A model generated the notes under the pieces. That model worked only from the letters and a program-made list of their open reading frames with translations, searched no databases and had not been told where the DNA came from. From IMG/VR virus record IMGVR_UViG_3300045988_070370, positions 3,495 to 67,494 of that record: 64,000 bases of DNA; one strand, written 5' to 3'. Below are positions 35,101-62,048 of this stretch, piece by piece (positions within the stretch are counted from its first letter, which is position 1; every line of letters begins with the position of its first letter). The position numbers were made by a program, and so were the translations under genes. This DNA comes from a virus.

Positions 35101-37253
35101 TTTGTCTTTGCATCTGATGCCTGATTGAATCCACGAAGTTTGCTAAGGAACATAGCATAATTGATAACTGCACCTTTTTGCTTAGCAGTCATGGAGTCTG
35201 AGCGAGTAGCATCCAAGACAGTCTTAGTCAAGTCTGCATTGGTTGACACATCAATTTTGCTTTTTATTTCGTCCCAATTATCATTAAACAACCATTGACC
35301 GAACTTGTCTGCTTTGTTGACCTGATGCTTAATCTTGAAATATTGAACTGCATTTATAGCGCCAACAGCAGTTCGAGGAGCCTGCATGAAACCAACAGAA
35401 TAGAACATTCCAAGGCAAGTATCAATCTGCTTTTCTCTCGCATCAGGATTTGTGAAAACATTGAAGTCACTCCAGCTTCCGTCTCCATCACCCCATGCAG
35501 CATGAAGGGCAGTACCAAATTCCTCTTCGGAAATCTCAGCCATCACACCTTGTATTCCAGACTTGTTGGTTGCATTGCTCAACCATTTATAGTAAGCATT
35601 ATTGCCTATCTTTTCAAAGAAGGAAGATACTTTTGAAAGACCCAACTTAGACAACAACTTAGACGCACCAGGCAGATACTCACCGAACATTTCCGAGAAG
35701 TTCTCTATTGTAGCTGAGCCAAAGCCATCCTTGATAGCCTTACCAAGACTGACACCTTCATTGAACTTCAAATCGCCATTCTTGTCTTGGGTCACACCTC
35801 CATTCTCGTTGTTCATTCCAACATAACGTTCTATCACATTATTATATGTAGAACCAAGTTGGTTGGTAGCTGCCAATGCTGCACTACCAGTCATATCACC
35901 GAGCATACGACCAGTATTTTTAGTAAACCATTTGCCAAGAGCACCGAGAGCCATTTTCTCTCCAACCTTTTCTCCTGTCTTGGTGAAACCAGTGGTCATA
36001 ACATTTCTCCAGCCGCTTAACGCAAAGTCTCCCATGAACTTTAAGGAGCGACCGCTCACATCTCCATACTGATAAGCCTTTGTGCCATACTGCTGCTGTT
36101 TAGCAGCTTCTCCTTGTTGCTGCTGAATAGCACCAAGCATAGCTTGTGCTGCATTTCCTGCATTGGAACCTTTCTTGATTGTTCCATCTTCCATGCCCTT
36201 CTTTACTTGGAGCAAATTGTTTGATATAGCTGCATCCATAACACCCTGAGAATATAACTTCGGGTCAAGCATGGTATTAAACATCGCACCAAAATAATTG
36301 GAAACGTCATTCCACTTATCTTTCCACCAACCAGCATTTTCATTTCTCTGCTTTTGTTCCTTCAACTCCTGAAGCAGAGTTGTACGCAACATCTGATTGT
36401 AAGCCTTGGCGGTATTATAAGCACCATACTCTACATCAGACAAGCGGTTTGCCTCATTGCTTATAGCTGTATTAAATGAAGAAGGAGCAACTGCTCCACC
36501 AGATGCAACAAAAGGAGAACCCTGCAAGTGCATAGACTCATTCAATTCCTTAGAACGTCTGTCCTGATTCTCGTTAAGCCACTCTTGTCTTCTCTCCATT
36601 TGTCGCATAGCAACATCTGTGTCGGACAAATCTGGGTCAGCCTTATCCAATTCAGAAGGAACAATGCCCATATCAACTGCATTGTTCCACTCTTCCCCAT
36701 ATTTATCCAACTGGTTCTGATACTGGGAAGCATCATACTCGTTGTCGAACTCTACACCATCTGTTGTAGTATAGGTTCCAGTCTTGCCTGTTGTCGAATT
36801 GTAGTTGAACTCATTCTTCTGTACATTCTTATTCTGTAAAGGATTCTTGAAACCGATAGTCACCTTACCACCATTTGCATTAAACTTCTTTGCTCGCTCA
36901 ACCGTCTTACGGATATTGCCAGATGCACGCTTAACTTGTCTAGCAGTATTCAGGACAGATTGTGTCACAGACAAGTAACGAGCACGGTCAGCAGCACTCA
37001 TAGGTACACTACCACCCTTCGCCCTTGATGATGTCCTACTACGAGGTACAAAGAGTGCAGAATAGAAACGCTCATAAGTAGATGGAACATCAAAGTTCTG
37101 AGCCTTCAAGTTCTCATAAATAGCGTGTCTGTTATCTGCACCGCTCTTTCCGTCTCTGGTCAGGGCACTTTCAAACTTATTGTAATCATCAGGCACATCA
37201 TAGTTCTGTGCTTTCAGATTCTTGTATAAAGTGTATAATGGTCTTTCTGCCAT
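20199..37253 (-). CDS. Giant polyvalent virion/ejection protein (5,684 aa) with multiple embedded enzyme modules
   Basis: One uninterrupted 17,055-nt ORF, co-oriented and tightly spaced with two ejection-like protein genes. Modules read from motifs are listed as separate features below. Confidence 0.85.
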   Translation of the reverse strand: MAERPLYTLYKNLKAQNYDVPDDYNKFESALTRDGKSGADNRHAIYENLKAQNFDVPSTYERFYSALFVPRSRTSSRAKGGSVPMSAADRARYLSVTQSVLNTARQVKRASGNIRKTVERAKKFNANGGKVTIGFKNPLQNKNVQKNEFNYNSTTGKTGTYTTTDGVEFDNEYDASQYQNQLDKYGEEWNNAVDMGIVPSELDKADPDLSDTDVAMRQMERRQEWLNENQDRRSKELNESMHLQGSPFVASGGAVAPSSFNTAISNEANRLSDVEYGAYNTAKAYNQMLRTTLLQELKEQKQRNENAGWWKDKWNDVSNYFGAMFNTMLDPKLYSQGVMDAAISNNLLQVKKGMEDGTIKKGSNAGNAAQAMLGAIQQQQGEAAKQQQYGTKAYQYGDVSGRSLKFMGDFALSGWRNVMTTGFTKTGEKVGEKMALGALGKWFTKNTGRMLGDMTGSAALAATNQLGSTYNNVIERYVGMNNENGGVTQDKNGDLKFNEGVSLGKAIKDGFGSATIENFSEMFGEYLPGASKLLSKLGLSKVSSFFEKIGNNAYYKWLSNATNKSGIQGVMAEISEEEFGTALHAAWGDGDGSWSDFNVFTNPDAREKQIDTCLGMFYSVGFMQAPRTAVGAINAVQYFKIKHQVNKADKFGQWLFNDNWDEIKSKIDVSTNADLTKTVLDATRSDSMTAKQKGAVINYAMFLSKLRGFNQASDAKTKDKVEEGDTAPTLSNDLDDAYTEGHNADDADKHDIQIQQEDQMKTLAAAFGISEQQLSAMSDEELESLTGQDDKLDQAIYDYQLSSARYQGVIDDAQDKVDIAAHQAAQKVDMYTDRSRGSVRNATIKASGGLEDYGVYIISGNIATHEDGSIDVSNSDDMILYYDPTTNSVEHADALMFAELGEELPADDVKAQAVADAKENAIKEIAGIIDGTVEVGSQFNVTDTDGIEHTYEVLADYGDGTAAVSIDGNVVENPYSLADLQQMKDLEDQKRLEAAKAQREQLEKERADQQTQETEETQPSFDFNQILNDNGNVVLVDVLDEDGNTKYPDSKLFLIRDTGAKAKVVELKSDGTIVPHAVNKEDVATISSMSLDEYKQAFAASSMIEDNSGENRGEIEVESPTIEDETTPEVAENTETTAPSDETTETPATEQTPAAPTITLEDGTIVPMLEDGNPDFSKLTAAQTAELYDNQFGEDADSIVSGYVSDAKKALDKANNMTVKGKTFLEQKASKDAKEKAIADAQAAYDSAIAIRDAYNERQLAKVEDTAEGRKNLIEKARRKFARLKSAVKDDAEAVAQIYKETVGTLLHRLYDGTGIDVTDTIPLTAEEYVASNLGAHSLNYEGTETSKGVKQETGLSREDFAKTQLLAADGKGTTIDALVHSLWDNRPSNLESLDTQDIRNALIDVLTSGFKASEARSFIENIRIAQAEKLIEEERTAAENAAYYEQQKAKEEEEKKKAELEKKAEEEKKKAEENIDLPAIDKQGEPINNNIIELAKWAKKQGLEIDPTSKLNSYADLFLMCKDGFGVSTLVPDEGKNINQVIYFPDNAEVVEQLGKLQEEFNAGRDLNHSSNIDSEITEGATFYDAATAKEFRDFVNEQTKFPDTLREGSNAIEAPEDATDEKPLGEQLDESDLPFSAKENGKQQTTAERAADVEKNKVDDMKVVDNIVGQKTRKAFERLAKMMGANIQWQYSDKLGNGWIQETKDADGNVHRTIFITLDSSITEGAQFIFGHEMTHQIKSLNPAAYNELTQLVLDTYGSDAFDKAVDETMLRYSDAGFSGRARDYYAEEVVADAVGEMIRDLNLAHTLAMKMSHPLLAAIHEILQKIKLAFFGTEYSDVTKNIIRSIEQAYVKTAKGEVTNSETGEDVSFSLRQKPEPKKKGVGYKVFVLKDGKLYPPMVANPDGAATPVGVWLDADAAPIAGESKTGRPQVKQGGKGTQGGSGKLAYRPGWHLGVVPYAIQFNRKDAEGNKTLFPKNFVFAEVEYAADVDYQEEARQEGINPSGKYQHSLAGLKHLPTDGYYMYRTNPNPETDPWVITGAMKVNRILTRAEQADLVSKAGREPQQIQEGDIVTDDVVNSINQEIADAPKFSIKTYHGSQASFDKFDHSFMGSGEGAQAYGWGTYVSEVEGIAKAYAKQNAKKNAPSRLMYQDKPMTYKTPSIIYQVAFNMDKFNISAKEAISQMIDAGEKKLASVDDTPFAKMKAKQVQDELNVLKGLNPSDFKINEDYDTVAQNLADTKSGLDLLEDELKDAKSYVDLYQSRLDEAKGELSKAKESGTGLGVDMYESDVMYYSEQVEKYKQNVKTKESDIKDVKTKIDALQKKLDSIGKPRNLYSVDIPDDTGDNYIGWDEPITPKMLEAKRRVMEEDGYTMYDSDGNYDYFEKTENGKYQYWQLWNRQKGNGLYSELSKVLHSDKLASLALNKQGIVGVKVIADRTTGGNKEGKMNYVIFDENNAQITNHTKFSLRLKSAIEETETNPSDAQKESGNYKKGHIKFGGYDYTIENPKGSTRSGKDANGKEWKVTMHDTYGYIRGKFGKDGDHLDMFINDKADLDNWDGDVFVVDQVNPDGSFDEHKVMYGYDSMDDAEKAYLANYSKGWKGLGNITGVSKDEFDKWLDTSKRKLKPFKDYTKVKFSLKDNQGNPLNQDGTLKLDKIKSVDELTDEDFLHPTRNVELPSLPKKIADAIGTEGKPVVIKKNIFERNYMRHKDVTPELSKVIFKSALYNPDLYGQNQKKTRPYNWVLINTKDEKGNNRTVLLEVNPNKDNVEIVHWHFVNDKNLGLIKKQAIREGDQVLILPSEQSEEVGGLSNLTDDLSAAKIDNSSETAKENGEKFSLKDEKTLAGVHNITEEKLRKALKLGGFANPSLAVIDTNKSGHDNFGEISFIAPSALVDKRTGKTAGTWITDAYTQRYPSVERQMSEKGSQKFEDWVDSLEYPSAAKAEIKRQTKDVMEDNGVPAWELMYLKEKGIDIKAYDSRIDYRWKEIINDHPTAEDILSSMQNDPELNEKVTSLAKHAIIHPTWEKVSLEVRRKMYKETGVKASPINPQVRKQTKEIFERDYKSTLLNKDGSPRKKDVKKVVEDIVKEHNDTKKYDFYLSKVKASNYVNKNGLYDDYIRWQENKLDEFGTKNRIFRGYTKDGSRKYVPETLENVSKAMREEADGQTNGSEYTSFGSFIAKLASRVDSTDEMRANKDKLSSNEDKEAFYEKWSEVYYDLAKFLYNDVFYGEQRLHDIVLQSDPKKYAKKEYGITLTPTFMKKLDALKNAVQTELKSAYFETKYNRPLRLNEFAAAVVPDNLGEDVRKGIEDAGLPMYDYDPNKEGDRSRAFNEAINSSDNIRFSLKAEKEKIVADAKSNGTYMTAPNGEKTKLDAEQWATVRTANFKNWFGDWENDPENASKVVDENGEPMVMYHYTDESFTIFGKDKEVGKNTFGNATNASYAATTTIGHWFTSNKKQPEYMGKPMACFLNIVEPFDGYTLEGLADYLNNYISDEDFNSYEEDYENVAPIIEAGNNFREEQIRDGYDGVVIDDEEFGGTSYVAFNANQIKSAENNNGDFSADNNDIRFSLAGERGAAAADKAEERTARMDFLSVARKMEEEKKDAKAIKMATGWERGADGKWRYEMPDAKIKDTMDVGGGQIVKRYEEDMLWNGGKLSKVIDAPELFKAYPQLKDVRIETDAIMNDMPSNGEYNAKTNTITIHADELKYMNSILNHEIQHAIQSIEGFDRGGSPRLVRGEIKKRLAEVTKQIRQLRAEGKEDEAKAIVEKNRGLYNAYQANDDYNSYKSLAGEVEARNVSARINMTPEERRKTLAESTEDVARKDQIFLGVGDVSFSLRDMADGKESGAADMAEDLKSLNTPDEVDDAIKTAIDDMPSGWQMANRKMIHIAQALGENRKAEIAGEEPKFSLKDGTLIKAGTYFSGGGLVEEGLKGIIDPVVAVEYDEKISGVYRNNFGQHIVTADVRDVDPKELVKQIDGEVEYFHASPVCKNYSQAKSNHAELELDKETAASTAEFINAIKPKVVTIENVKGYKDSEAMKTITDALDANGYTWDADVYNAADYGGYTNRERLIVRAVRDGKLPDKPKKMAHKSGWYEAVADIIPTLTEKKNGVAPWMDVRLKADGIDWRNIDKPLYVMGSAYADGKIPHAFADELLPTLRTKSGDVIVMPDGKVYRAMGRVLARVSGVSDDYKMPFSENLSHTIIGNGIPTQLTEHVIAPLLTGSDPKFSIRTYHGTGASFDKFDFSHMGEGEGSQAFGWGGYVTNSKDIAEDYTRRAKIRKDNGGFEFVTDMSANNKDMVRQYIYKYKDVNKGLDAMRKDLPSALEMFPDDDDLKELSNILAKKNEEIAVPDNIAYLYDVDIPDDNGDYLDWDAPLTDKQKNTIIKELRRLKIDFDDFKKRGFSFDGSFGGNAYDFLMYALRRTKKWKDVDASRAVSKFLSSIGFTGIKYKAGNIFGGAKEGDYNYVIFDENNANIVGNTRFSLRYDQFEHDLNQWKKDNNLPKDAKRPSIPQRNAGESAVDFLRRVDDYRKQMALWKTAPTYEQHLLSDDTALGEFNRELQRGSVLKRIAFQDSMLAIRKAQEAIMKEVGVDRLNMAEDAYTAENRSHGKGKNEFEEYNNEFLQPLRKAYHQMKKVLGDSYDNVRIYMMAKHGLERDAQMAFKKSLEADYEDVAQRSAAYRAYKGDMNRMGNDSGFELGYIDFTTWRQRDNALRVKYSPSYMNYRYDKMGIAYDYSGLSALFDGSDFEEAAHKLIKDIESKYITETHNLWDATNAATKKILRDGYKAGMMSKDTYQYVRDMYSHYIPLRGWDGTTADQVWDYIGGGKGAFNQTLKTAHGRTSIADDPIAYIENMAESGILLNNKNWVKQHLMLLAQNHPTSLLTLSKAWYVKSTDANGNEEWIPATPQITSQMNSNQVKTAIDAFEKKMEQMAQTGDATQKRDGLNIAYPQTHSEEREHEVRVMKDGEEYVIYVNGDPQLAQAMNNTRAHRVREIQSGKLDRAAAWLGRKMAAAYTSLSPLFIPSNYFRDLTMTLASTAIREDGRYNYMLRKNLATSWNLGFMLRDYQNGKLREKVNNGNATPKEQMFYDFMMNGGETGFVSSLDVEDLKKKFKNDLKDLDRWKANPVKVGHTIMDGIEFLNRAIEDSNRFAVYMTSIQYGRSIDEAVNDAKDVTLNFNRKGTGEYGWQMIRNLYLFINPAVQSLQTLGALVKHHPFKFTAVTASWLASGVLVPIVNAALMSMLGGDDDKDKYWQFTKWDRRNNLIMWVPFTHEFVKIPLAQEFRAFYGLGDMIASKMMGGELAEESWSQYGEDLLGQVVDMLPLDPTGYDGNIAVSLMPNAIRPVFELAFNVDFTGKPLFKDTEYNKYDPNFTKAYVGTPDWLVRASKMVNSIGNDYPDVQQNSIDAFGDPRYNLNNPAVVDHVLSSYLGGAYTMGSQVLGVLTKSLNDPKEIKVADIPLFSKFVSNPDDRPVTKKQGDEFWDMKENHDRAANTLSKLKKQAKVDGDYSMLERFYGSEEYKQYKQDDVKVKKYEEDKKKERAEESGEEYRPHKLNAEDIYKAHATPKDDFEDLKLKQLYTKLNGFKTSYDLLVDTAPSQSDGYYNTNKAAIDAIDEISLDKQEISELKKGFLDDGKDAYNAEDMKQIRELRKKIISVLEKANKVVVANQKANAKKK
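23796..24542 (-). other. YHGT module copy 2, aa about 4238-4486
   Basis: KFSIRTYHGTGASFDKFDFSHMGEGEGSQAFGWGGY ... GDYNYVIFDENNANI. Confidence 0.35.
24558..25505 (-). other. Complete C5 cytosine DNA methyltransferase module, aa about 3917-4232
   Basis: Motif I is YFSGGGLVEEG (25461-25475). Motif IV is HASPVCKNYS. Motif VI is IENVKGY. Motif VIII is YTNRERLIV. Motif X is IGNGIPTQL. Confidence 0.8.
25740..26528 (-). other. Zincin module 2 (HEIQH at 26082-26096), aa about 3572-3838
   Basis: TGWERGADGKWRYEMPD...ITIHADELKYMNSILNHEIQHAIQSIEGF. Confidence 0.55.
26544..27206 (-). other. YHYT module (divergent third copy of the YH[GY][ST] module), aa about 3346-3570
   Basis: VMYHYTDESFTIFGKDK...GYDGVVIDDEEFGGTSYVAFNANQI. 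The start and end architecture matches the two YHG[ST] modules. Confidence 0.3.
29343..29840 (-). other. Inorganic-pyrophosphatase-like module, aa about 2470-2637
   Basis: GNYKKGHIKFGGYDYTIENPKGSTRSG...TYGYIRGKFGKDGDHLDMFI...VFVVDQ...FDEHKVMYGY parallels the NYGYI...DGDPVDV core of family I PPases. Confidence 0.45.
29856..30980 (-). other. YHGS module copy 1 (possible H-Y-E-type ADP-ribosyltransferase-like), aa about 2092-2466
   Basis: It starts KFSIKTYHGSQASFDKFDHSFMGSGEGAQAYGWGTY and ends GKMNYVIFDENNAQI. It contains a coiled-coil insert. Confidence 0.35.
32040..32054 (-). other. Zincin motif 1 (HEMTH) in the giant protein, about aa 1734
   Basis: The reverse complement reads FIFGHEMTHQ. 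Confidence 0.6.
37053..37238 (-). repeat. Tandem protein repeat LYxNLKAQNxDVPxxYxxFxSAL (2 copies) at the giant-protein N-terminus
   Basis: PLYTLYKNLKAQNYDVPDDYNKFESAL and HAIYENLKAQNFDVPSTYERFYSAL. Confidence 0.7.
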
Positions 37254-42235: not shown

Positions 42236-42284
42236 GTTCTTAACATTTATCTCCCATTTTCTTGCAAGTAACAAAAAATATAAT

Positions 42285-42292
42285 TATCTTTG
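42285..42292 (+). promoter_or_regulatory. -7 promoter box TAtcTTTG for the integrase
   Basis: tatctttg lies 27 nt upstream of the ATG at 42319. Confidence 0.5.
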
Positions 42293-42318
42293 CAGCGAAA
42301 ACCATAATAAGGAGGCTT

Positions 42319-43479
42319 ATGAAAGAAAAGAACAATTCAAAAGAACCAGTCACTATCAGATACAAGGAGTTAGCCAATGGCAACCTCAGTATCTACCTTG
42401 ACATCTACAAGGATGGCAAGAGGGCATACGAATTTCTCAAACTTTATCTCCTGCCCGAAACAGGTAAGGATAGAATGGAGCACAAGAGGAAGAACAAGGA
42501 GACCAGGGAAGTAGCCAATCTCATCAAATCACAACGCATCCTTGACATCAAGAACGGAATGGCAGGGATAGAGAGCAAAAACAAAGGAAAAATGAAACTC
42601 TCTGACTACATAGACAAATTCATAAAATACAAGAAGGGAGTAAACCCTACCTATAATGACTCCTTCCTTAATCGAACGAAATCGCTTGTTGTAGAATACA
42701 AAGGCGATAATGTACTTATGAAGGATATAAACAAAGAATGGTGCTTAGGCTACATTAGATTCCTGAATACAACAACCTCTCACAGAGGTAAACCGCTCGG
42801 TAAGAACTCAATAAAGACATACTACAGATACTTTGGTTCTGTTATCATCAAGGCTGCAAAGGATGAAATCATACAGAAGAATCCTTTGGATCAGATTGAA
42901 ACAGAAGAAAAGCCAAAGGCAAATGATGATGCAGGAAGGGTGTACCTGACCATAGACGAGATAAGAAAGATGGCAGAGACTGAATGCGAGAAAGAGGTCA
43001 TTAAACGTGCATTCATGTTTTCCTGTTTTTGCGGATTGCGAATATCAGACATCAGGAAGCTGAAATGGACAGATATAGAGCAGACAACAGATGGCGATGG
43101 AAATACTCACTACCGCCTTTCAACGACCATGCAGAAGACTCAGAAGACCATCACCTACCAGTTATCCAATGAAGCTGTCAAATGGCTACCTGAAAGAAGT
43201 GAAGGCGAACTTGTGTTCGACCATCTTACCAAGAAGTCCAAGTTGAGTATGGTAGTGAAAGACTGGGCAAAGGCAGCAGGAATAGATAAGTATGTTACAT
43301 TCCATACCGCCAGACATTCTTTTGCCACAATGATGCTGACACTTGGAGCAGACATCTACACTACCAGCAAGTTACTTGGGCACTCCAAGATACAGACAAC
43401 CGAGATATATGCTAAGATAATTGATAAGAAGAAGGATGAAGCCATGGGACTCATTGATAAGTTCTTTGATAAAGGTTAA
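42319..43479 (+). CDS. int: Tyrosine recombinase / phage integrase (Bacteroidota type)
   Basis: ORF 42262-43479, with likely start MKEKNNSKEPV. The catalytic context is CGLRISDIRKLKW, HTARHSFATMML and LLGHSKIQTTEIYAKI (R..HxxR..H..Y). Confidence 0.9.
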   Translation: MKEKNNSKEPVTIRYKELANGNLSIYLDIYKDGKRAYEFLKLYLLPETGKDRMEHKRKNKETREVANLIKSQRILDIKNGMAGIESKNKGKMKLSDYIDKFIKYKKGVNPTYNDSFLNRTKSLVVEYKGDNVLMKDINKEWCLGYIRFLNTTTSHRGKPLGKNSIKTYYRYFGSVIIKAAKDEIIQKNPLDQIETEEKPKANDDAGRVYLTIDEIRKMAETECEKEVIKRAFMFSCFCGLRISDIRKLKWTDIEQTTDGDGNTHYRLSTTMQKTQKTITYQLSNEAVKWLPERSEGELVFDHLTKKSKLSMVVKDWAKAAGIDKYVTFHTARHSFATMMLTLGADIYTTSKLLGHSKIQTTEIYAKIIDKKKDEAMGLIDKFFDKG

Positions 43480-44006: not shown

Positions 44007-44432
44007 CTATCGTTGTTTCAGTACTATATATGTAACTACAGAACCGACAATAGCCCCAATGAAAGCGTCTGCAACCATCCACATAATCTTGTAGATTACA
44101 CCATGTTGTTCCTTAAATGAAGACTCCTTCTTTAGAGCCTTCACTTCCTCCTCATGCTCCTTTTTTAACATACTGCCATTCCAAAGGATTGGTATCTGGC
44201 TCCTGCCCTGCTTGGTAACACTATACACCACCCTGGATTCTTGGTTACTATAGGCATACCCTCGGTTGAGGTATTCGCTCTTCACCAATAGTTCTGCAAC
44301 ACCCTCTTTCCAAGCACCATCAGGAGATACGTTATCATAAATGATACTCCATATCTCCTGCTCATACTCAGACTTGTCTCGGATGCTATCCAGCAGCACG
44401 TAAAGCTTCTGTTCATTTGTTATCTCAGCCAT
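44007..44432 (-). CDS. Tail-anchored small protein, paralog B
   Basis: 141 aa, containing KLYVLLDSIRDKSEYE and the C-terminal helix MWMVADAFIGAIVGSVVTYIVL. Its start overlaps the upstream stop. Confidence 0.55.
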   Translation of the reverse strand: MAEITNEQKLYVLLDSIRDKSEYEQEIWSIIYDNVSPDGAWKEGVAELLVKSEYLNRGYAYSNQESRVVYSVTKQGRSQIPILWNGSMLKKEHEEEVKALKKESSFKEQHGVIYKIMWMVADAFIGAIVGSVVTYIVLKQR

Positions 44433-45622
44433 TATTTTATCCCCAAACTTTGTATTTGATTTTTTAAGATTTTTGATTTTGTTATATAATCAATGTTATT
44501 TAAACGGCAATGATTTATGGTTACATCATTGCCAGACATTGCGCCAAAAACCAAACTACAAATATACCCATTATAATCACCTCGTTTCTGAGAAATAGTT
44601 GCCATCATAAGAAAACAACTTCCTATTGTATCGTTAACTCGACCTTTTCCATCAAGTACATCTATTTTGGATAAGCCATATCTATCTTGTAATACAGACA
44701 AACTTTTCTCGAAACAAGAATTTGCTAACGTGTACGCATTTTTGTCGTAATATGCAAAGCCTTGCATATAATATGCATCTCCCAAAAGTTCATTCAACAA
44801 ATTAGAGGAAAGAGATAAGTATTGTCTCTTGTGCTCAATACAATCTATCAGTTTTTCCGAATATAATATCGTGTTATCTCTATCCTTTAAACCGTCATAG
44901 GCTATCATTCGATAATAATATGAATAGAAATAAGAATCGTCTGACAAATATATATAAGGGTCATCAATCCATTCGTTACATACATCAATACACTCTCTAT
45001 CTTTATGTGTACTAAGATAACATCTTGCTAAGTATCTGTAGCCTTTATCCGTTAAAAGGTTTTTATATTTAAAATCTTCCATTTGATGAATAATCATACT
45101 ATAACTTCCAGAAGAAAAATTAGATTCTAAACCTTCATATACTTTATCTATATACTCAGGGCTATAATTTGCCGTTGATTTATTTATAATAAGCTTGTTC
45201 CCATCTATACCAACCTTACCAATTTTCTGAATTGCAGACAAACCTAACAATAAAGGTGCTCTTTGACTATCCAATATAACAGCCTCGACATCATCAATTT
45301 TAATACCACCTATCTCTAATCTTTTTATTTTAACAACAATATGGTCTATACTTTCACCAGACGCAATAGTAGAAGACCCCTCGCCAATAACGTCTGTTTC
45401 ACGCAACAATCCATTACGGAACATATAAGACGCAACCTTAGAAGACAGACTAACATCGGATGCTCCTGTGTCAAATATCATACTAACTTTATAGCCATTA
45501 ACTGTACACGGAACCGTAAAAACACCACCATCTTTTGTCATTTCTATAACTGTTTGTGAAAAAACACATAAGCTAATTAACATAAAAGACAAAACAAACA
45601 TTACTCTTTTCATACCTACCAC
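44432..45622 (-). CDS. Secreted retropepsin-like aspartyl protease domain fused to a TPR-like helical domain
   Basis: The signal peptide is MKRVMFVLSFMLISLCVFSQ. The clan-AA motif is VSMIFDTGASDVSL, with LLLGLSAIQKIG as the flap/closing segment. The C-terminal 230 aa are Y/L/D-rich helical repeats. The region is low in GC. Confidence 0.65.
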   Translation of the reverse strand: MVGMKRVMFVLSFMLISLCVFSQTVIEMTKDGGVFTVPCTVNGYKVSMIFDTGASDVSLSSKVASYMFRNGLLRETDVIGEGSSTIASGESIDHIVVKIKRLEIGGIKIDDVEAVILDSQRAPLLLGLSAIQKIGKVGIDGNKLIINKSTANYSPEYIDKVYEGLESNFSSGSYSMIIHQMEDFKYKNLLTDKGYRYLARCYLSTHKDRECIDVCNEWIDDPYIYLSDDSYFYSYYYRMIAYDGLKDRDNTILYSEKLIDCIEHKRQYLSLSSNLLNELLGDAYYMQGFAYYDKNAYTLANSCFEKSLSVLQDRYGLSKIDVLDGKGRVNDTIGSCFLMMATISQKRGDYNGYICSLVFGAMSGNDVTINHCRLNNIDYITKSKILKNQIQSLGIK

Positions 45623-53041: not shown

Positions 53042-53580
53042 CAGAAGAAATCAGACAAGCCATCCAACTTCTTGAAGAAAACGGCTACAAGGTTACTGCT
53101 CCTCCCAAGGAAGTCAAAGACGAATATACCTTTGAGCGAGCATGGAACTTGTACGACAAAAAGGTAGGCTGCAAAGCCAAACTCGAAAAGAAGTGGAACT
53201 CCATGAGCCAAAAAGACCGCAAGGCAGCTATAGAGTATATTCCATTATATGTGATTGCAACCGAGGATAAAAAGTATCGCAAGAACTTCCAAACTTTCCT
53301 CAATCAGCGAGGATGGGAAGACGAACTTATCGGAGCGACACCACCGCCAGCAGTTATCAACGAGCAACCATCTGAGATAAGCCAACTTATCGCCAAAACA
53401 AGGGCAGAACAGGAGCGTAATACGGACGATGCAAAGAATCATGCCCTTCGACAACGCATCTTTGGCATGATAGAGGTTCTTGAAAAGAATCCAAAGAGCT
53501 TCTGTAAATCTCTGTTGGAGATATATCGTGAAAATGGTACGTTAGAGCGTTTGGGTATAGAATGGAATCCACAGACATAA
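53038..53580 (+). CDS. Hypothetical protein
   Basis: 180 aa, ATGA-coupled. Confidence 0.5.
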   Translation: MTEEIRQAIQLLEENGYKVTAPPKEVKDEYTFERAWNLYDKKVGCKAKLEKKWNSMSQKDRKAAIEYIPLYVIATEDKKYRKNFQTFLNQRGWEDELIGATPPPAVINEQPSEISQLIAKTRAEQERNTDDAKNHALRQRIFGMIEVLEKNPKSFCKSLLEIYRENGTLERLGIEWNPQT

Positions 53581-54344
53581 ATAAAATGATAGCAATCAAC
53601 AAATACAACAAGCAGCATCCTCTAAGAGTATTCGAGGCATTCGCTGGTTATGGCAGCCAGAGTCTCGCCTTCAAGTACCTTCAAGAGAACCATCCTGAGT
53701 TTGACTTCAAGGTAGTAGGATATTCGGAGATAGAACCTTCTGCCATTCAAGCCTACAGGCTCCTGCATGGGTGGAATATTCCTAATTTCGGAGACGTGAC
53801 AAGAATTGACTGGAACGAGGTTCCCGACTTCGACTTCATCAGTTGGTCTTCTCCATGCCAAGACTTCTCAAATGCTGGTCTCAGGCAAGGTGGCGAGGAA
53901 GGGAGCGGTACACGTTCATCCCTTATCTTTCAGGAGAAGAGGATGCTGACAGTCAAGAAACCGAAATATGTAATGCTGGAGAACGTGAAAGGTCTCCTAT
54001 CCGAGAAAATGAGAAAGTACTTCTTCCAATATCTCAGAGACCTCGACTCTTTCGGCTACACGTCATTTTACAAGGTTCTTAATTCTAAGGACTATGGAAT
54101 ACCACAGAATCGTGAACGTATCTTCGTAATCTCTATCCTAAGAACAGAAGACGAGCCGAACCCTGAGTATCATTTCCCTTCTCCTATCAAGTTAGAGACT
54201 ACGGTTGAGGATATGTTAGAAGACAATGTTTCTCCCGAATATTTCATGTCCCAACAACTCCTCGAAAAGTATCTATCCAAAGCAGACATCAATGAAGCAA
54301 TCCAAAAACTATACCCAGAAGATAGCGATACCGAAAACGGCTGA
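53562..54344 (+). CDS. C5 cytosine DNA methyltransferase, N-terminal part (motifs I-VIII)
   Basis: Motif I is RVFEAFAGYGSQSLAF. Motif IV is SWSSPCQDFSNAG. Motif VI is LENVKGL. Motif VIII is PQNRERIFVI. Confidence 0.85.
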   Translation: MESTDINKMIAINKYNKQHPLRVFEAFAGYGSQSLAFKYLQENHPEFDFKVVGYSEIEPSAIQAYRLLHGWNIPNFGDVTRIDWNEVPDFDFISWSSPCQDFSNAGLRQGGEEGSGTRSSLIFQEKRMLTVKKPKYVMLENVKGLLSEKMRKYFFQYLRDLDSFGYTSFYKVLNSKDYGIPQNRERIFVISILRTEDEPNPEYHFPSPIKLETTVEDMLEDNVSPEYFMSQQLLEKYLSKADINEAIQKLYPEDSDTENG

Positions 54345-54912
54345 TGGATGCTCTGTTGCAGTTACAGCCAGTATAGGTATGTCAAGTGTAATGAACTTCA
54401 TTGATACGGCTCATTATCCGAAAGGTGGAGTTTTAATCATCAAACCAGTATGATAATATACAGAAATAAACACGGAAGTTTTAAAGGTGGTTTGTTTGAA
54501 ACAAAAATATCACCAACCATAACAATAGCATCCTTTGAACATAACACATTTATCTTAAAAATAAAAGAATGTGCGACAAAATTATAAAGCTGGCAAACCT
54601 CCAAATCAAAGGCAGAATAGAGCAGCAGACCAGAGTCTATTCCACCAAGGGAATCTCTCCTACTCTCAATTCTGCTATGGGTCACGGAGGTAACTGCATT
54701 CCACTATTCTTAATTGTCAAAGAGATATGAGAAAAGCCATCCTCTACAAGGAACGAACAGCCGATGGAAGGATGCTACGCAAAGCATACGACACTCATAA
54801 GTGCAGCTTCCACGCAAAGATGAAACATAGAACACCACGTACAGACGGACTCAGTAATACCATCACAAGTTTCTTCACTGACAACTTAGTATTAATCGTA
54901 AGCGAGATATGA
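54226..54912 (+). pseudogene. String of four short overlapping ORFs, each with a C5-MTase target-recognition-like [SAN][PN]T[ILM] segment
   Basis: The ORFs are 54226-54453, 54450-54587, 54569-54730 and 54727-54912, in frames 1, 0, 2 and 1. Their motifs are SVAVTAS, ISPTITIAS, GISPTLNSAMGHGG and LSNTITSFF. Junctions are ATGA or short overlaps. Confidence 0.5.
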
Positions 54913-55361
54913 TAACTGGAGGAAAACGTATGAAATCCCTACTCCTATCAGGGAAGGTCAAGCCTGATATGGGGGGGCAAGTCTTAGACCTCTATAACCA
55001 GCAAGTCTATGACAATATTGCTCCAACAATGCTAACAACCATTGATTCTTCATCAATGACATTCGTAACCATCATGAACAAAGAAATCATTCACACCGCT
55101 CCCAACGGCAAGAAATACTCCATCCAAATCAGGAAGTACACTCCAAGAGATTGTTTCCGCCTGATGGGAGTGCATGAAGCTGACATAGATAAACTCCTGA
55201 GCAAGGAGAAGTCTGGTCAACTCATTATCTGTAAGAGCAAACTCTACGCACTTGCAGGAAACTCAATAGTCACCAACTGCCTGACTGCCATGTTCGAGGA
55301 ACTGATATTTCCATCAGGGAATCACTATCACGACAAGAGCGGTCAGCTTTCACTCTTTTAG
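54909..55361 (+). CDS. C5 cytosine DNA methyltransferase, C-terminal part (TRD remnant plus motifs IX-X)
   Basis: IAPTMLTT, IRKYTPRDCFRLMGV (motif IX) and ALAGNSIVTNCL (motif X). A G7 tract lies at 54971-54977. Confidence 0.75.
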   Translation: MITGGKRMKSLLLSGKVKPDMGGQVLDLYNQQVYDNIAPTMLTTIDSSSMTFVTIMNKEIIHTAPNGKKYSIQIRKYTPRDCFRLMGVHEADIDKLLSKEKSGQLIICKSKLYALAGNSIVTNCLTAMFEELIFPSGNHYHDKSGQLSLF

Positions 55362-59419: not shown

Positions 59420-60460
59420 ATGAATGAAAAAGTAATCACCTCGTACAAGGCTTTCAACAAGAATATGCAATGCCGTAATTTCCAGTACGAAGTTGGAAAA
59501 GAGTATGAAATGGACGGAGAAATTAAGTGTTGTAACCGAGGTTTCCACGCTTGCAAGTCTCCAATGGAAGTGTGGGACCACTACGATATGCTTAACTCTC
59601 GCTATGCAGAGGTAGAACAGTCTGGTAAAATTGATGAAGAAGGAGATTCGACAAAGGTTTGTTCTTCGCATATCAAGATTAAGGCTGAGTTGAAGCTGGC
59701 AGACATCATTAAGGTTGGTGTCGAGTGGCTGAAAGATATTACCTCACCATCAAAGTTTAAGACAGATGGTGCGTTGTATGATAACGGAGACAGAAACAAA
59801 CAGATTGGTTCAAGCGGTGACTATGCTCAGATTGGTTCAAGCGGTTACTCTGCTAAGATTGGTTCAAGCGGTGACTCTGCTCAGATTGGTTCAAGCGGTG
59901 ACTCTGCTCAGATTGGTTCAAGCGGTTACTCTGCTAAGATTGGTTCAAGCGGTGACTATGCTAAGATTGGTTCAAGCGGTGACTATGCTCAGATTGGTTC
60001 AAGCGGTGACTCTGCTCAGAATGGTTCAAGCGGTGACTCTGCTCAGATTGGTTCAAGCGGTGACAATGCTCAGATTGGTTCAAGCGGTGACTCTGCTCAG
60101 ATTGGTTCAAGCGGTGACTCTGCTCAGATTGGTTCAAGCGGTGACTCTGCTCAGATTGGTTCAAGCGGTTACTCTGCTAAGATTGGTTCAAGCGGTGACT
60201 ATGCTAAGATTGGTTCAAGCGGTGACTATGCTAAGATTGATAGCACTGGAGAAGATTCTGTTATTATGTGTGCTGGAAACAAATCCAAAGTCAAAGCAAA
60301 GGTAGGCTCATGGATAACGCTGGCAGAGTGGAAATGGAGCGATGAGAAAAATCATAATGTTCCAGTATGCGTTAAGACAGAGTACGTTGACGGAGAAAAC
60401 ATCAAGGCTGATACTTGGTATCAACTTAAAAACGGAAAATTTGTTGAAGTTCAGAAGTAA
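59420..60460 (+). CDS. Repeat protein: Cys/His N-domain (DUF7666-like) plus 16 x IGSSGxxAx nonapeptide solenoid plus C-terminal beta domain
   Basis: 346 aa. The N-terminal part is YKAFNKNMQCRNFQYEVGKEYEMDGEIKCCNRGFHACKSP. The central part has sixteen 9-aa repeats. Confidence 0.7.
   Translation: MNEKVITSYKAFNKNMQCRNFQYEVGKEYEMDGEIKCCNRGFHACKSPMEVWDHYDMLNSRYAEVEQSGKIDEEGDSTKVCSSHIKIKAELKLADIIKVGVEWLKDITSPSKFKTDGALYDNGDRNKQIGSSGDYAQIGSSGYSAKIGSSGDSAQIGSSGDSAQIGSSGYSAKIGSSGDYAKIGSSGDYAQIGSSGDSAQNGSSGDSAQIGSSGDNAQIGSSGDSAQIGSSGDSAQIGSSGDSAQIGSSGYSAKIGSSGDYAKIGSSGDYAKIDSTGEDSVIMCAGNKSKVKAKVGSWITLAEWKWSDEKNHNVPVCVKTEYVDGENIKADTWYQLKNGKFVEVQK
59804..60235 (+). repeat. 27-bp in-frame tandem repeat, 16 near-identical units
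   Basis: The unit is ATTGGTTCAAGCGGTGACTCTGCTCAG. Variants are limited to GAC/TAC, TCT/TAT/AAT, CAG/AAG and one ATT/AAT. A degenerate 17th unit lies at 60236-60262. Confidence 0.95.
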
Positions 60461-61213: not shown

Positions 61214-61470
61214 AAAAACTATTATTAGCGTATGCGATATTACTTGCAGGTTGCGCTGGCAGGACAGAAACCGAGCATAAGCATATCGTGATTAGCAATG
61301 ATTATCAGGACACCTGTATGATTGTTGCTAATGGATATAGAACAATACCAATAGAATGCAAGAAAGGCTGGTCGAAAAGCAAGAGCCATGGAACAATTAC
61401 CATATTCTTGTCCGACAAAGGTAACAGTCAAGTATGTAATGTTAATAAGATAATTTGCAAAATAGAATAA
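61210..61470 (+). CDS. Lipoprotein
   Basis: MKKLLLAYAILLAGCAGR contains a lipobox. Confidence 0.6.
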   Translation: MKKLLLAYAILLAGCAGRTETEHKHIVISNDYQDTCMIVANGYRTIPIECKKGWSKSKSHGTITIFLSDKGNSQVCNVNKIICKIE

Positions 61471-62048
61471 TGAAAATAGAAATTACAAGAGTAACCGACT
61501 GGCAGCGTGTTGTAGATGCCGCTCGGTTTACGCAAGGCAAGAAGTCTTTAGGACGTGAGCCAAGCGATGAGTTCAAGAAACAGATGATTCTCAGCGAGCA
61601 TTCACCGCTCAGAGAATTGGAGTTTGATATTAAAATGTATGGCATACCATACTGGGTGAGCAACCACTTTGTTCGCCACGTCCATGCCCAGCCATTCGTC
61701 TCCACATCACGACCAGATATTACTGGCTCCAAGGTATCTCGCCACGATATGCGTCAGGATGATTTGGTCAACTTGCAGCTATCCCTCAACGCTCAGGAGA
61801 TTATCAATATCTCAAAGCTAAGACTATGCAACAAGGCATCCAAGGAAACAAGAGAGGTATGGTATAAGGTAATTGACGAGTTGGTTCAAATAGAGCCTTA
61901 TCTTGCATCCGCTTGCGTTCCTCAATGCGTTTACAGAGGATTCTGCCCTGAGGCAAAGTCATGTGGCAGAAGTTGTGCTGGAACATTTAAATACAACAGA
62001 CAAATGTATATAAAACAAAACATTTACATACCAGACGAAACCAAATGA
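61470..62048 (+). CDS. Divergent ThyX-like (Thy1-fold) protein with Cys-rich C-terminal extension
   Basis: ORF 61455-62048, with start MKIEITR overlapping the upstream stop (TAATG). [41 protein letters not shown] parallels ThyX GHxxxxEHxxFTFxIxxxSRxxxxQxxRHRxxSxxxxSxRY. [13 protein letters not shown] parallels NARSLxNFxxLR. The tail is [23 protein letters not shown]. Confidence 0.5.
   Translation: [192 protein letters not shown]

What the first reader, a model, noticed from the sequence alone, without database searches (positions are those of the whole stretch)
53562..55361. The second C5-MTase is split into six ORFs, with four or five tandem TRD-like mini-ORFs joined by ATGA overlaps
Seen: 53562-54344 encodes motifs I-VIII, and 54909-55361 encodes a TRD segment plus motifs IX-X. 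The 565 nt between them hold four short ORFs in frames 1, 0, 2 and 1. Each has its own ATG, and each contains a TRD-like core followed by a hydrophobic strand: SVAVTASIG..VLIIKPV, ISPTITIAS..TFILKI, GISPTLNSAMGHGGNCIPLFLIVKEI and LSNTITSFFTDNLVLIVSEI. The last ORF then begins with IAPTMLTT..TFVTI. Two junctions share the same GAGATATGA sequence, and their preceding peptides are paralogous (LIVKEI / LIVSEI). The stop/start overlap was therefore duplicated together with the module rather than arising by random decay. Established: multispecific Bacillus-phage MTases (SPR, phi3T, rho11s) carry several TRDs in tandem. M.AquI is a natural two-subunit C5-MTase split within the TRD. Inference: there are three possibilities. 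This may be a heterodimeric MTase (the first and last ORFs) with leftover TRD fragments. It may be a decayed multispecific enzyme. Or it may be a system in which frameshifting or reinitiation chooses among alternative TRDs. The last would be new.
Basis: partly seen in the sequence, partly recalled or inferred. Interest (0 to 1): 0.65.

Follow-up and report, generated by a model that had tools for sequence, protein, structure and literature searches.

The report
C5 methyltransferase with free-standing TRD minigenes
A Segatella (Prevotella) copri prophage encodes a multi-target DNA cytosine methyltransferase in six overlapping genes, with four sequence-recognition modules as separate, conserved ~50-residue genes rather than parts of one protein, an arrangement I found no description of.

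Summary
ORF A (53562-54344) carries motifs I-VIII. ORF F (54909-55361) carries one TRD plus motifs IX-X. Four mini-ORFs (B, C, D, E) tile the gap, three junctions being ATGA overlaps.

This is not decay. In 105 distinct relatives, including a complete S. copri genome, none has a TRD-bearing single-chain gene. The 120 best F homologues are all 95-237 aa. Every module has pN/pS of 0.05-0.20, only in its TRD frame, like the catalytic parts (0.07-0.10). Stop/start overlaps persist whatever the neighbouring module. No slippery heptamers are present.

The nearest single-chain homologues (45-55% identity) carry TRDs like C, D, E and the relatives' G in one ORF. In 17 relatives no TRD is attached to either catalytic half, yet all parts stay under purifying selection.

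Best reading (inferred): a translationally coupled, multi-subunit multispecific C5-MTase whose TRDs act in trans and shuffle as cassettes. A G7 tract in F (54971-54977) is G6 or G8, and out of frame, in relatives, suggesting a phase switch. A second phage lineage has arrays of at least 11 TRD minigenes with a different junction.

No biochemical or read-level evidence was available.

The parts
53562..54344 (+). ORF A: catalytic N-half, motifs I (FEAFAGYG), IV (SSPCQDFS), VI (ENVKGL), VIII (QNRERIF), plus the proximal part of the variable region. Stop is TGA.
   Evidence: (PF00145 3.7e-53). Core pN/pS 0.10.
54292..54453 (+). ORF B (53 aa from the conserved ATG; the ORF listing starts it at 54226): TRD module B. 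It overlaps the last 53 nt of A in the +1 frame.
   Evidence: The ATG lies 50 nt before A's TGA in 91/105 relatives. In the overlap the B frame has pN/pS 0.18 against 0.68 for the A frame. Module pN/pS 0.19.
54450..54587 (+). ORF C (45 aa): TRD module C (KGGLFETKISPTITIASFEHNTFILK). Its start overlaps B's stop as ATGA.
   Evidence: B>C ATGA 11/11; matches the TRDs of P0006/P0007. pN/pS 0.13.
54569..54730 (+). ORF D (53 aa): TRD module D, M.HhaI-like (RVYSTKGISPTL). Present in about 93 relative loci.
   Evidence: pN/pS 0.05. ATG at module position 0 in 87/100 copies.
54727..54912 (+). ORF E (61 aa): TRD module E (PRTDGLSNTIT..DNLVLIV). Its start overlaps D's stop as ATGA.
   Evidence: D>E ATGA 11/11; E about 1e-8 to the TRDs of P0022/P0007/P0042/P0006. 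pN/pS 0.12.
54909..55361 (+). ORF F (150 aa): TRD module F (54909-55055) fused in frame to the C-terminal core. Its start overlaps E's stop as ATGA.
   Evidence: F-TRD pN/pS 0.08.
55056..55361 (+). Z core inside F: beta-strand MTFVTIMNKEI, motif IX (RKYTPRDCFRLMG) and motif X (GNSIV). Its ATG(A) at 55056 is the actual start codon in relatives where D is followed directly by Z.
   Evidence: D>Z ATGA 15/17; Z-only proteins of 95-110 aa. pN/pS 0.07.
54428..54456 (+). Junction repeat copy 1 (end-of-module strand + ATGA). The other copies are at 54705-54733 and 54887-54915. Cassette breakpoints in relatives fall here.
54705..54733 (+). Junction repeat copy 2 (D/E junction, GAGATATGA).
54887..54915 (+). 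Junction repeat copy 3 (E/F junction, GAGATATGA).
54971..54977 (+). G7 homopolymer inside F (codons for MGGQ). It is in frame here.
   Evidence: among relatives with this F allele, G7 occurs in 26 (24 with an intact F), G6 in 3 and G8 in 6 (all frameshifted).

Best explanation
The locus encodes a multispecific DNA cytosine-5 methyltransferase made in pieces. A is the catalytic N-half. F supplies the C-terminal core (motifs IX-X) with one TRD attached. B, C, D and E are free-standing TRD mini-proteins of about 45-61 aa. Each is translated from its own ATG by termination-reinitiation coupling with the preceding ORF.

The TRD mini-proteins are proposed to dock non-covalently on the A+Z core. A plausible docking element is the hydrophobic C-terminal strand every module carries, which is homologous to Z's N-terminal strand MTFVTIMNKEI. 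One catalytic core would then serve several target sequences. This would protect prophage, phage and possibly host DNA from several restriction systems.

Because each cassette brings its own start and borrows its stop from the next cassette's ATGA or TAATG, cassettes can be gained, lost or reordered by recombination at the conserved junctions without breaking anything downstream. Homopolymer tracts (G7 in F here, G6-G10 in module B' of relatives) probably switch individual specificities on and off.

Shown: the ORF structure, TRD homology, purifying selection per frame, conservation of overlaps and starts, absence of slippery sites, cassette mosaicism, and tract-length polymorphism.

Inferred: separate translation, assembly in trans, strand docking, phase variation, and the biological role.
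For: (1) pN/pS is 0.05-0.20 for B, C, D, E, F-TRD, B' and G only in the TRD frame, against 0.10 and 0.07 for the catalytic parts. The other frames give 0.7-12 and contain stops. In D, third-position diversity is 0.168 against 0.032 and 0.023 at positions 1 and 2.
(2) Stop/start overlaps are conserved regardless of neighbour: D>F ATGA 67/71, D>E 11/11, B>C 11/11, D>Z 15/17, B>D TAATG 35/36, G>D 37/40. D's last codon plus stop is ATATGA in 94/98 copies, although ATA is only 29% of Ile codons in A. D's first 7 codons are invariant even at synonymous sites.
(3) B's head is the constrained frame in the A/B overlap (0.18 against 0.68), and its ATG is kept in 91/105 relatives.
(4) In 17 relatives no TRD is covalently joined to A or Z, yet A, D and Z have pN/pS of 0.08, 0.02 and 0.06.
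(5) No close relative is single-chain. The architecture is present in the complete genome of the isolate S. copri HDE04.
(6) The nearest single-chain homologues carry the same TRD types in one ORF. A+D+Z aligns with M.HhaI over its full length.
(7) A second lineage has arrays of at least 11 TRD minigenes with a different overlap (TATGAAGATTGA, +1 steps) and groups with different single-chain enzymes.
(8) Two-piece C5-MTases and fragment complementation are established (PMC3404938).
Against: No C5-MTase assembled from three or more pieces, or with a free TRD, is known. D alone gives a low-confidence AlphaFold model (pLDDT 57.7), so autonomous folding is not supported. In D>Z relatives the docking strand would be present twice. 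Module G in relatives often lacks an ATG (28 of 45 B'>G junctions), so not every module can be explained by simple reinitiation. Rare in-frame fusions (L077, L107, L111, L071, L125, L059) show that covalent linkage is also tolerated. Purifying selection shows the peptides matter, not that they act in trans.
Confidence: 0.55

Rival explanations
1. Recoding: ribosomes shift frame (-1 at B/C, C/D, D/E and E/F; +1 at A/B) or otherwise continue across the junctions. A single long multi-TRD polypeptide, or a nested set of fusions, is made, equivalent to the single-chain homologues.
For: Single-chain homologues with the same TRDs exist. All four downstream junctions shift in the same direction (-1). 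The B frame is conserved upstream of A's stop, as in programmed frameshift overlaps. Occasional relatives are fused in frame by 1-nt indels.
Against: There is no X_XXY_YYZ heptamer in the last 60 nt of any of the five ORFs, and no homopolymer at the junctions. The P-site codons at the stops (ATA, GTA, TTA) cannot re-pair in the -1 frame. An ATG is conserved exactly at every junction, which frameshifting does not require. Five successive shifts would give very little full-length product.
Confidence: 0.15
2. Only A+F (an M.AquI-like heterodimer) is the enzyme. B-E are a reservoir of silent TRD cassettes that become functional only after recombination into the expressed slot next to Z. They are kept intact because they are used often.
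For: There is cassette mosaicism with breakpoints at module boundaries. F is the only TRD in frame with motifs IX-X in the window. HNH homing endonucleases sit in some arrays.
Against: D is in frame with Z in essentially none of about 95 copies, yet has the strongest constraint (pN/pS 0.05, and 0.02 in the D>Z subset). In 17 relatives no TRD occupies the 'expressed' slot and A and Z are still conserved. Silent cassettes would not need conserved start codons and stop/start overlaps.
Confidence: 0.12
3. The mini-proteins are real but have another job, for example modulating or inhibiting the methyltransferase, or acting as decoys against host restriction or methyl-dependent nucleases, rather than supplying specificity.
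For: Selection shows only that the peptides are useful. D alone has no confident autonomous fold.
Against: Their conserved residues are exactly the TRD recognition core. R22, V23, Y24, S25, G28, S30, P31 and T32 are invariant in D and correspond to the M.HhaI loop and TL motif. They occupy the TRD position in the gene order, and homologous TRDs act in cis in single-chain relatives.
Confidence: 0.1
4. Pseudogene or sequencing/assembly artefact: a multispecific methyltransferase broken by frameshifts.
For: Automated annotation would read it this way. S. copri HDE04 has an extra in-frame stop in F. Some relatives carry odd indels.
Against: The same frame structure recurs in 105 distinct relatives from many samples and in a complete isolate genome. 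All close F and D homologues are short. There is strong frame-specific purifying selection.
Confidence: 0.02

Closest known systems
Multispecific C5-MTases of Bacillus phages (M.SPRI, M.Phi3TI, M.Rho11sI, M.H2I) and uncharacterised metagenomic single-chain multi-TRD homologues (P0006, P0007, P0012, P0022, P0042)
   Same: Several TRDs lie in tandem between motifs VIII and IX of one catalytic framework. They are phage-borne. The metagenomic homologues are 45-55% identical in the N-half, end with the same ...QLSLF, and carry TRDs homologous to C, D, E and G.
   Different: In those enzymes all TRDs are in one polypeptide. Here each TRD (except F) is its own overlapping ORF with its own start. Similarity to the classical Bacillus-phage enzymes is only about 25%.
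M.AquI (naturally two-subunit C5-MTase)
   Same: Motifs I-VIII plus the proximal variable region are on one polypeptide, and the distal variable region plus IX-X on another (PMC3404938). A and F match this split.
   Different: M.AquI has two subunits and one specificity. Here there are six ORFs and five TRDs. In 17 relatives neither catalytic half carries a TRD.
M.EcoHK31I (alpha/beta, beta encoded in an alternative frame within alpha)
   Same: A C5-MTase that needs a second small polypeptide encoded in an overlapping alternative reading frame (PMC3404938).
   Different: There the small subunit carries motif IX, not a TRD. There is no array and no cassettes.
Type I restriction-modification HsdM/HsdS
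   Same: Sequence specificity resides in a separate subunit that is translationally coupled to the methyltransferase gene by a stop/start overlap (abstract of PMC3510504, listed). TRDs are exchanged by recombination.
   Different: It has different enzyme chemistry (N6-adenine) and unrelated folds. One S subunit carries two TRDs, rather than an array of single-TRD minigenes.
Phase-variable methyltransferases (phasevarions; Type III mod genes)
   Same: A simple-sequence tract inside the coding region varies in length between close relatives and toggles the frame.
   Different: Known cases switch the whole enzyme of a bacterial host. Here the tract would switch one TRD of a phage enzyme while Z keeps its own start. 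Switching itself was not observed.

Membership tests
DNA cytosine-5 methyltransferase (PF00145) | Motifs I, IV (PCQ), VI (ENV) and VIII (QxRxR) in order | tested here: met
   ORF A: PF00145 E=3.7e-53, profile positions 2-227. Motifs read.
DNA cytosine-5 methyltransferase (PF00145) | Motifs IX and X at the C-terminus | tested here: met
   F has RKYTPRDCFRLMG and GNSIV. The Pfam hit alone is below threshold (0.0046), but A+D+Z aligns to M.HhaI and M.MpeI through motif X.
DNA cytosine-5 methyltransferase (PF00145) | One polypeptide carrying the catalytic motifs and the TRD | tested here: not met
   Six ORFs in the window, and the same in 105 relatives.
DNA cytosine-5 methyltransferase (PF00145) | m5C methyltransferase activity | not testable with these tools
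   No methylome or read data.
Multispecific phage C5-MTase | Two or more TRDs in tandem between motifs VIII and IX | tested here: met
   Five TRD modules. C, D and E match individual TRDs of multi-TRD homologues.
Multispecific phage C5-MTase | TRDs contiguous in a single reading frame | tested here: not met
   Frames are 0,1,0,2,1,0 with stops between them. This is conserved.
Multispecific phage C5-MTase | Each TRD confers a distinct target sequence | not testable with these tools
   Needs methylome or expression assays.
M.AquI-type split C5-MTase | I-VIII and IX-X on separate polypeptides, with the break in the variable region | tested here: met
   A ends in the proximal variable region and F starts with a TRD. 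Definition from PMC3404938.
M.AquI-type split C5-MTase | Two subunits together contain a complete TRD and suffice | tested here: inconclusive
   True on paper for A+F in the window. Not true in 17 D>Z relatives, where neither half has a TRD. Activity not testable.
Programmed -1 ribosomal frameshift site | Slippery heptamer X_XXY_YYZ in the zero frame before the junction | tested here: not met
   None in the last 60 nt of A, B, C, D or E.
Programmed -1 ribosomal frameshift site | Downstream stimulatory RNA structure | not tested
   Not pursued once no slippery site was found.
Pseudogene | Relaxed selection (pN/pS near 1) and lineage-specific lesions | tested here: not met
   pN/pS 0.05-0.20 in frame. 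The lesions are shared by the whole lineage.
Homopolymer phase-variable gene | Homopolymer tract inside the ORF whose length differs among close relatives and sets the frame | tested here: met
   G7 at 54971-54977. G6/G7/G8 = 3/26/6 among relatives, with only G7 in frame.
Homopolymer phase-variable gene | Length heterogeneity within one population (reversible switching) | not testable with these tools

The most novel reading that the evidence does not exclude
Phage C5-methyltransferases can use free-standing TRD mini-proteins of about 50 residues as exchangeable specificity subunits. These would dock on a two-piece catalytic core by beta-strand complementation. They are encoded as self-contained, translationally coupled cassettes that shuffle between phages, and in some cases are switched individually by homopolymer tracts. 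This would be the first C5-MTase with separable specificity subunits. The arrangement appears to have arisen at least twice in gut phages.
Probability: 0.45. Interest if true: 0.9.

Novelty: new variant of a known kind. Interest (0 to 1): 0.8.

Why it matters
If the TRD minigenes act in trans, sequence recognition and catalysis in C5-methyltransferases can be physically separated, as they are in Type I systems. That would change how these enzymes are annotated. At present the pieces appear as a 'partial' or frameshifted methylase plus 53-aa hypothetical proteins.

It would explain how phages of a dominant human gut bacterium (Segatella copri) gain and lose protection against many restriction systems quickly. 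It would also offer a natural plug-in scaffold for engineering methylation specificity.

Even if the pieces are joined by some unknown recoding, the conserved frame-hopping array would be an unusual expression mechanism worth dissecting.

Tried and rejected
- Near-identity search against cultured phages found no match. Protein-level hits there are all below 60% identity (best listed about 50%).
D folded alone with its shallow alignment gave pLDDT 57.7 and pTM 0.28, too weak for a fold search or any conclusion.
- A TGA-recoding idea was considered, since the frame-0 stops between A and the end of C are both TGA. I dropped it because the whole window, including a 5684-aa ORF, reads well in the standard code, and because the selected frames are not frame 0.
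- A conserved 46-aa alternative-frame ORF inside D was rejected as coding: pN/pS is about 2 in those frames.
- Literature searches for split or arrayed TRD minigenes (papers read) found only the known two-piece enzymes and fragment-complementation work.
- P0024-like short N-halves turned out to be mostly single-chain enzymes in viral contigs.
- The lineage-2 selection estimate is rough, because synonymous sites are near saturation.
- The neighbour-joining tree has no bootstrap support values.
Full report
**What is in the window**

- A (53562-54344, frame 0, 260 aa) has motifs I, IV, VI and VIII and matches PF00145 at 3.7e-53.
- F (54909-55361, frame 0, 150 aa) has a TRD-like N-terminus followed by motif IX (RKYTPRDCFRLMG) and motif X (GNSIV).
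- Between them lie B (frame 1), C (54450-54587, frame 0), D (54569-54730, frame 2) and E (54727-54912, frame 1).
- The B/C, D/E and E/F junctions are ATGA overlaps. C/D overlap by 19 nt.
- A 29-nt junction repeat (end-of-module hydrophobic strand plus ATGA) occurs three times.
- From B onward every step is a -1 frame shift. A to B is +1.

**The modules are TRDs**

A conceptual A+D+Z protein aligns over its whole length with M.HhaI and M.MpeI. Z is the part of F from 55056 onward. D lies over the HhaI recognition loops: RVYSTKGISPTL against RIYSTRGIAITL, with the equivalents of Q237 and R240 kept.

The nearest homologues outside this phage lineage are 45-55% identical in the N-half. They are long single-chain enzymes of 372-648 aa that end in the same ...QLSLF and carry several TRDs in tandem in one ORF.

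Window modules C, D and E, and module G of relatives, each match one particular TRD of those proteins. E, for example, matches P0022, P0007, P0042 and P0006 at about 1e-8 in a small database.

The locus therefore descends from a multispecific-type C5-MTase. B and the F TRD have only weak matches. Similarity to the classical Bacillus-phage enzymes (rho11s, H2, SPR) is remote, about 25%.

**It is not decay or error**

I fetched 160 related loci from viral contigs, giving 105 distinct versions of the A-to-F region.

None has a single ORF running from motif I to motif X with a TRD. The only continuous one (L009) is an in-frame deletion of all TRDs.

The 120 best homologues of F in a 5.8-billion-protein collection share 62-99% identity with it. 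Their clusters have up to 833 members, and all are 95-237 aa long. All 42 homologues of D are 47-93 aa, mostly exactly 53 aa.

The architecture is also present in the complete chromosome of the cultured isolate Segatella copri HDE04 and in two Prevotella/Segatella MAGs. This identifies the host and excludes a metagenome assembly artefact.

The window also holds a Bacteroidota-type integrase at 42262-43479.

**Selection**

| Module | pN/pS in the TRD frame |
|---|---|
| A core | 0.10 |
| B | 0.19 |
| C | 0.13 |
| D | 0.05 |
| E | 0.12 |
| F TRD | 0.08 |
| Z | 0.07 |
| B' (relatives) | 0.20 |
| G (relatives) | 0.17 |

- In each case the low ratio appears only in the frame that reads the TRD peptide. 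The other two frames give 0.7-12 and contain stops.
- In D, nucleotide diversity is 0.032, 0.023 and 0.168 at codon positions 1, 2 and 3.
- In the 51-nt A/B overlap the B frame is the constrained one (0.18 against 0.68 for A's tail). B's ATG at 54292 is conserved in 91 of 105 relatives.
- The mini-ORFs are thus protein-coding and as constrained as the catalytic parts.

**Junctions**

The stop/start overlap is kept whatever module is adjacent.

| Junction | Overlap type | Conserved in |
|---|---|---|
| D>F | ATGA | 67/71 |
| D>E | ATGA | 11/11 |
| B>C | ATGA | 11/11 |
| D>Z | ATGA | 15/17 |
| B>D | TAATG | 35/36 |
| G>D | TAATG | 37/40 |

- D ends in ATATGA in 94 of 98 copies, although ATA is only 29% of the Ile codons in A.
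- The first seven codons of D are invariant even at synonymous sites, as expected of a translation-initiation region.
- No X_XXY_YYZ heptamer precedes any of the five stops, and there is no homopolymer at the junctions.
- This pattern fits termination-reinitiation coupling producing separate polypeptides. It does not fit programmed frameshifting.

**Cassette behaviour**

- Alignment of relatives to the window shows a mosaic. Breakpoints fall at 54353, 54443, 54568, 54730-36, 54886-92 and 55056, which are the module boundaries.
- I found 48 different module orders among the 105 relatives plus the window. The window's own order, A-B-C-D-E-F, is unique.
- Relatives also carry modules absent from the window: B', G, a D variant, and an HNH homing endonuclease (NUMOD4+HNH_3) that occupies a cassette slot and keeps the end-of-module strand.
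- Each cassette starts with its own ATG and takes its stop from the next cassette's ATGA or TAATG. Insertion or loss of a cassette therefore never disturbs the downstream genes.

**A natural experiment**

In 17 distinct relatives D is followed directly by Z. Z starts at the ATG(A) that corresponds to 55056.

In these relatives no TRD is covalently attached to either catalytic half. Even so, A, D and Z have pN/pS of 0.08, 0.02 and 0.06 within this subset.

If these phages keep a working enzyme, as the selection implies, the TRD must be supplied in trans or by an unknown recoding. This also argues against the idea that the internal cassettes are silent donors for an expressed slot. D is essentially never in frame with Z, yet it is the most constrained module.

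**Switches**

F in the window contains a G7 tract (54971-54977).
- Among relatives with this F allele, the tract is G7 in 26 (24 with an intact F), G6 in 3 and G8 in 6. All G6 and G8 copies truncate F after 25-34 codons.
- 46 relatives have a synonymous allele without a tract.
- Z has its own ATG, so an out-of-frame tract would remove only the F specificity.

In relatives, the B'/G junction contains a G tract of 6-10 (G7 in 10, G8 in 11, G9 in 10). It sets whether B' is complete, truncated or fused to G.

These are the hallmarks of homopolymer phase variation. Switching within a population could not be checked, and consensus errors at G tracts cannot be fully excluded.

**Generality**

A second phage lineage has an N-half about 53% identical to A (loci L161-L165 and L261, from other metagenomes).
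- The N-half is 231-245 aa and is followed by arrays of TRD minigenes, at least 11 in L162.
- Each minigene reads M(K/R)I ... TRD core ... hydrophobic strand-YED.
- The next ATG is embedded in the TAT GAA GAT codons, and each step is a +1 frame shift.
- Orthologous minigenes there show pN/pS of 0.14-0.35 for the closer pairs.

On a rough neighbour-joining tree the two split lineages group with different single-chain enzymes. Their junction geometries also differ, so TRD-by-TRD splitting probably arose more than once. A two-piece relative also exists (L196).

**Mechanism proposed**

The best-supported reading has these elements:
- A is the catalytic N-half and F/Z the C-terminal core.
- B-E are free TRD mini-proteins made by translational coupling.
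- Cassettes are exchanged at the conserved junctions.
- Individual specificities are possibly toggled by homopolymer tracts.

Natural two-polypeptide C5-MTases (M.AquI, M.EcoHK31I) and fragment complementation with breaks in the proximal variable region are established (PMC3404938). A three-or-more-piece enzyme, or one with a free TRD, is not described in anything I could find.

Every module ends in a hydrophobic strand homologous to Z's N-terminal strand (LFLIVKEI, LVLIVSEI, VLIIKPV and TFILKIKE against MTFVTIMNKEI). I suggest this strand is the docking element. That is inference only. Assembly in trans, the number of methylated motifs, and phase switching are all unproven.

**Verdict**

The finding is a conserved, selected and widespread new architecture of a known enzyme class. 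Its mode of action still needs experiments. No step in this analysis raised a safety concern.

Noticed in passing
window 20199-37253 (-): A 5684-aa 'polyvalent protein' ORF. It contains a complete C5-MTase domain (PF00145 1.5e-28, about residues 3927-4223), two ART-PolyVal domains, InPase, LPD13/23/38 and a PBECR5 nuclease domain. This is the 'first' C5-MTase implied by the finding's title.
   Followed up: partly
L055 878-1249; also L023, L034, L049, L051, L054, L060, L264; L261 3753-4169 in the second lineage: An HNH homing endonuclease (NUMOD4 + HNH_3) sits inside the TRD array as a cassette. It ends in the usual module strand (EVLIIKRVS) and is coupled by TAATG to the next module. It may drive cassette exchange.
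   Followed up: partly
relatives with module B' (e.g. L077 ~840-850, L027, L010): A poly-G tract of 6-10 at the B'/G junction (G7 in 10, G8 in 11, G9 in 10). Its length decides whether B' is complete, truncated or fused in frame to G. G often has no ATG of its own.
   Followed up: partly
L162 3184-5333; L161, L163-L165, L261: A second phage lineage with arrays of at least 11 TRD minigenes of about 50 aa. The junction is conserved as ...YED*/MKI... (TATGAAGATTGA), and the frame steps by +1.
   Followed up: partly
L009 (IMGVR_UViG_3300045988_103769): One relative has an exact in-frame deletion joining A residue 249 to F residue 71. This gives a 329-aa TRD-less methyltransferase ORF.
   Followed up: no
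L265 4104-4106 (Segatella copri HDE04, NZ_CP152346.1); same in L072 and L078: F carries an in-frame stop just after ...KPDMGG. In this sublineage F is interrupted, while Z could still start at its own ATG.
   Followed up: no
L077, L107 (A4 instead of A5 at the run corresponding to window 54304-54308); L111; L071; L014: Rare relatives fuse A in frame to the first TRD through 1-nt indels, or to D by loss of A's TGA or by deletion. Covalent linkage is therefore tolerated.
   Followed up: partly
window 42262-43479 (+) and 44432-45622 (-): A Bacteroidota-type tyrosine integrase (Arm-DNA-bind_5 + SAM_5 + Phage_integrase) lies next to an aspartyl-protease/TPR gene that may be host DNA. The window probably spans a prophage end or a permuted junction.
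   Followed up: no
window 54569-54589: The first seven codons of D (ATGTGCGACAAAATTATAAAG) are invariant in 82 distinct sequences, including at synonymous sites. This indicates a nucleotide-level constraint beyond the protein, such as an initiation region or a recombination site.
   Followed up: partly
window 59420-60460 (+) and 61455-62048 (+): A DUF7666 protein with collagen-like repeats, and an ORF with only the C-terminal part of ThyX (Thy1 profile positions 149-190).
   Followed up: no
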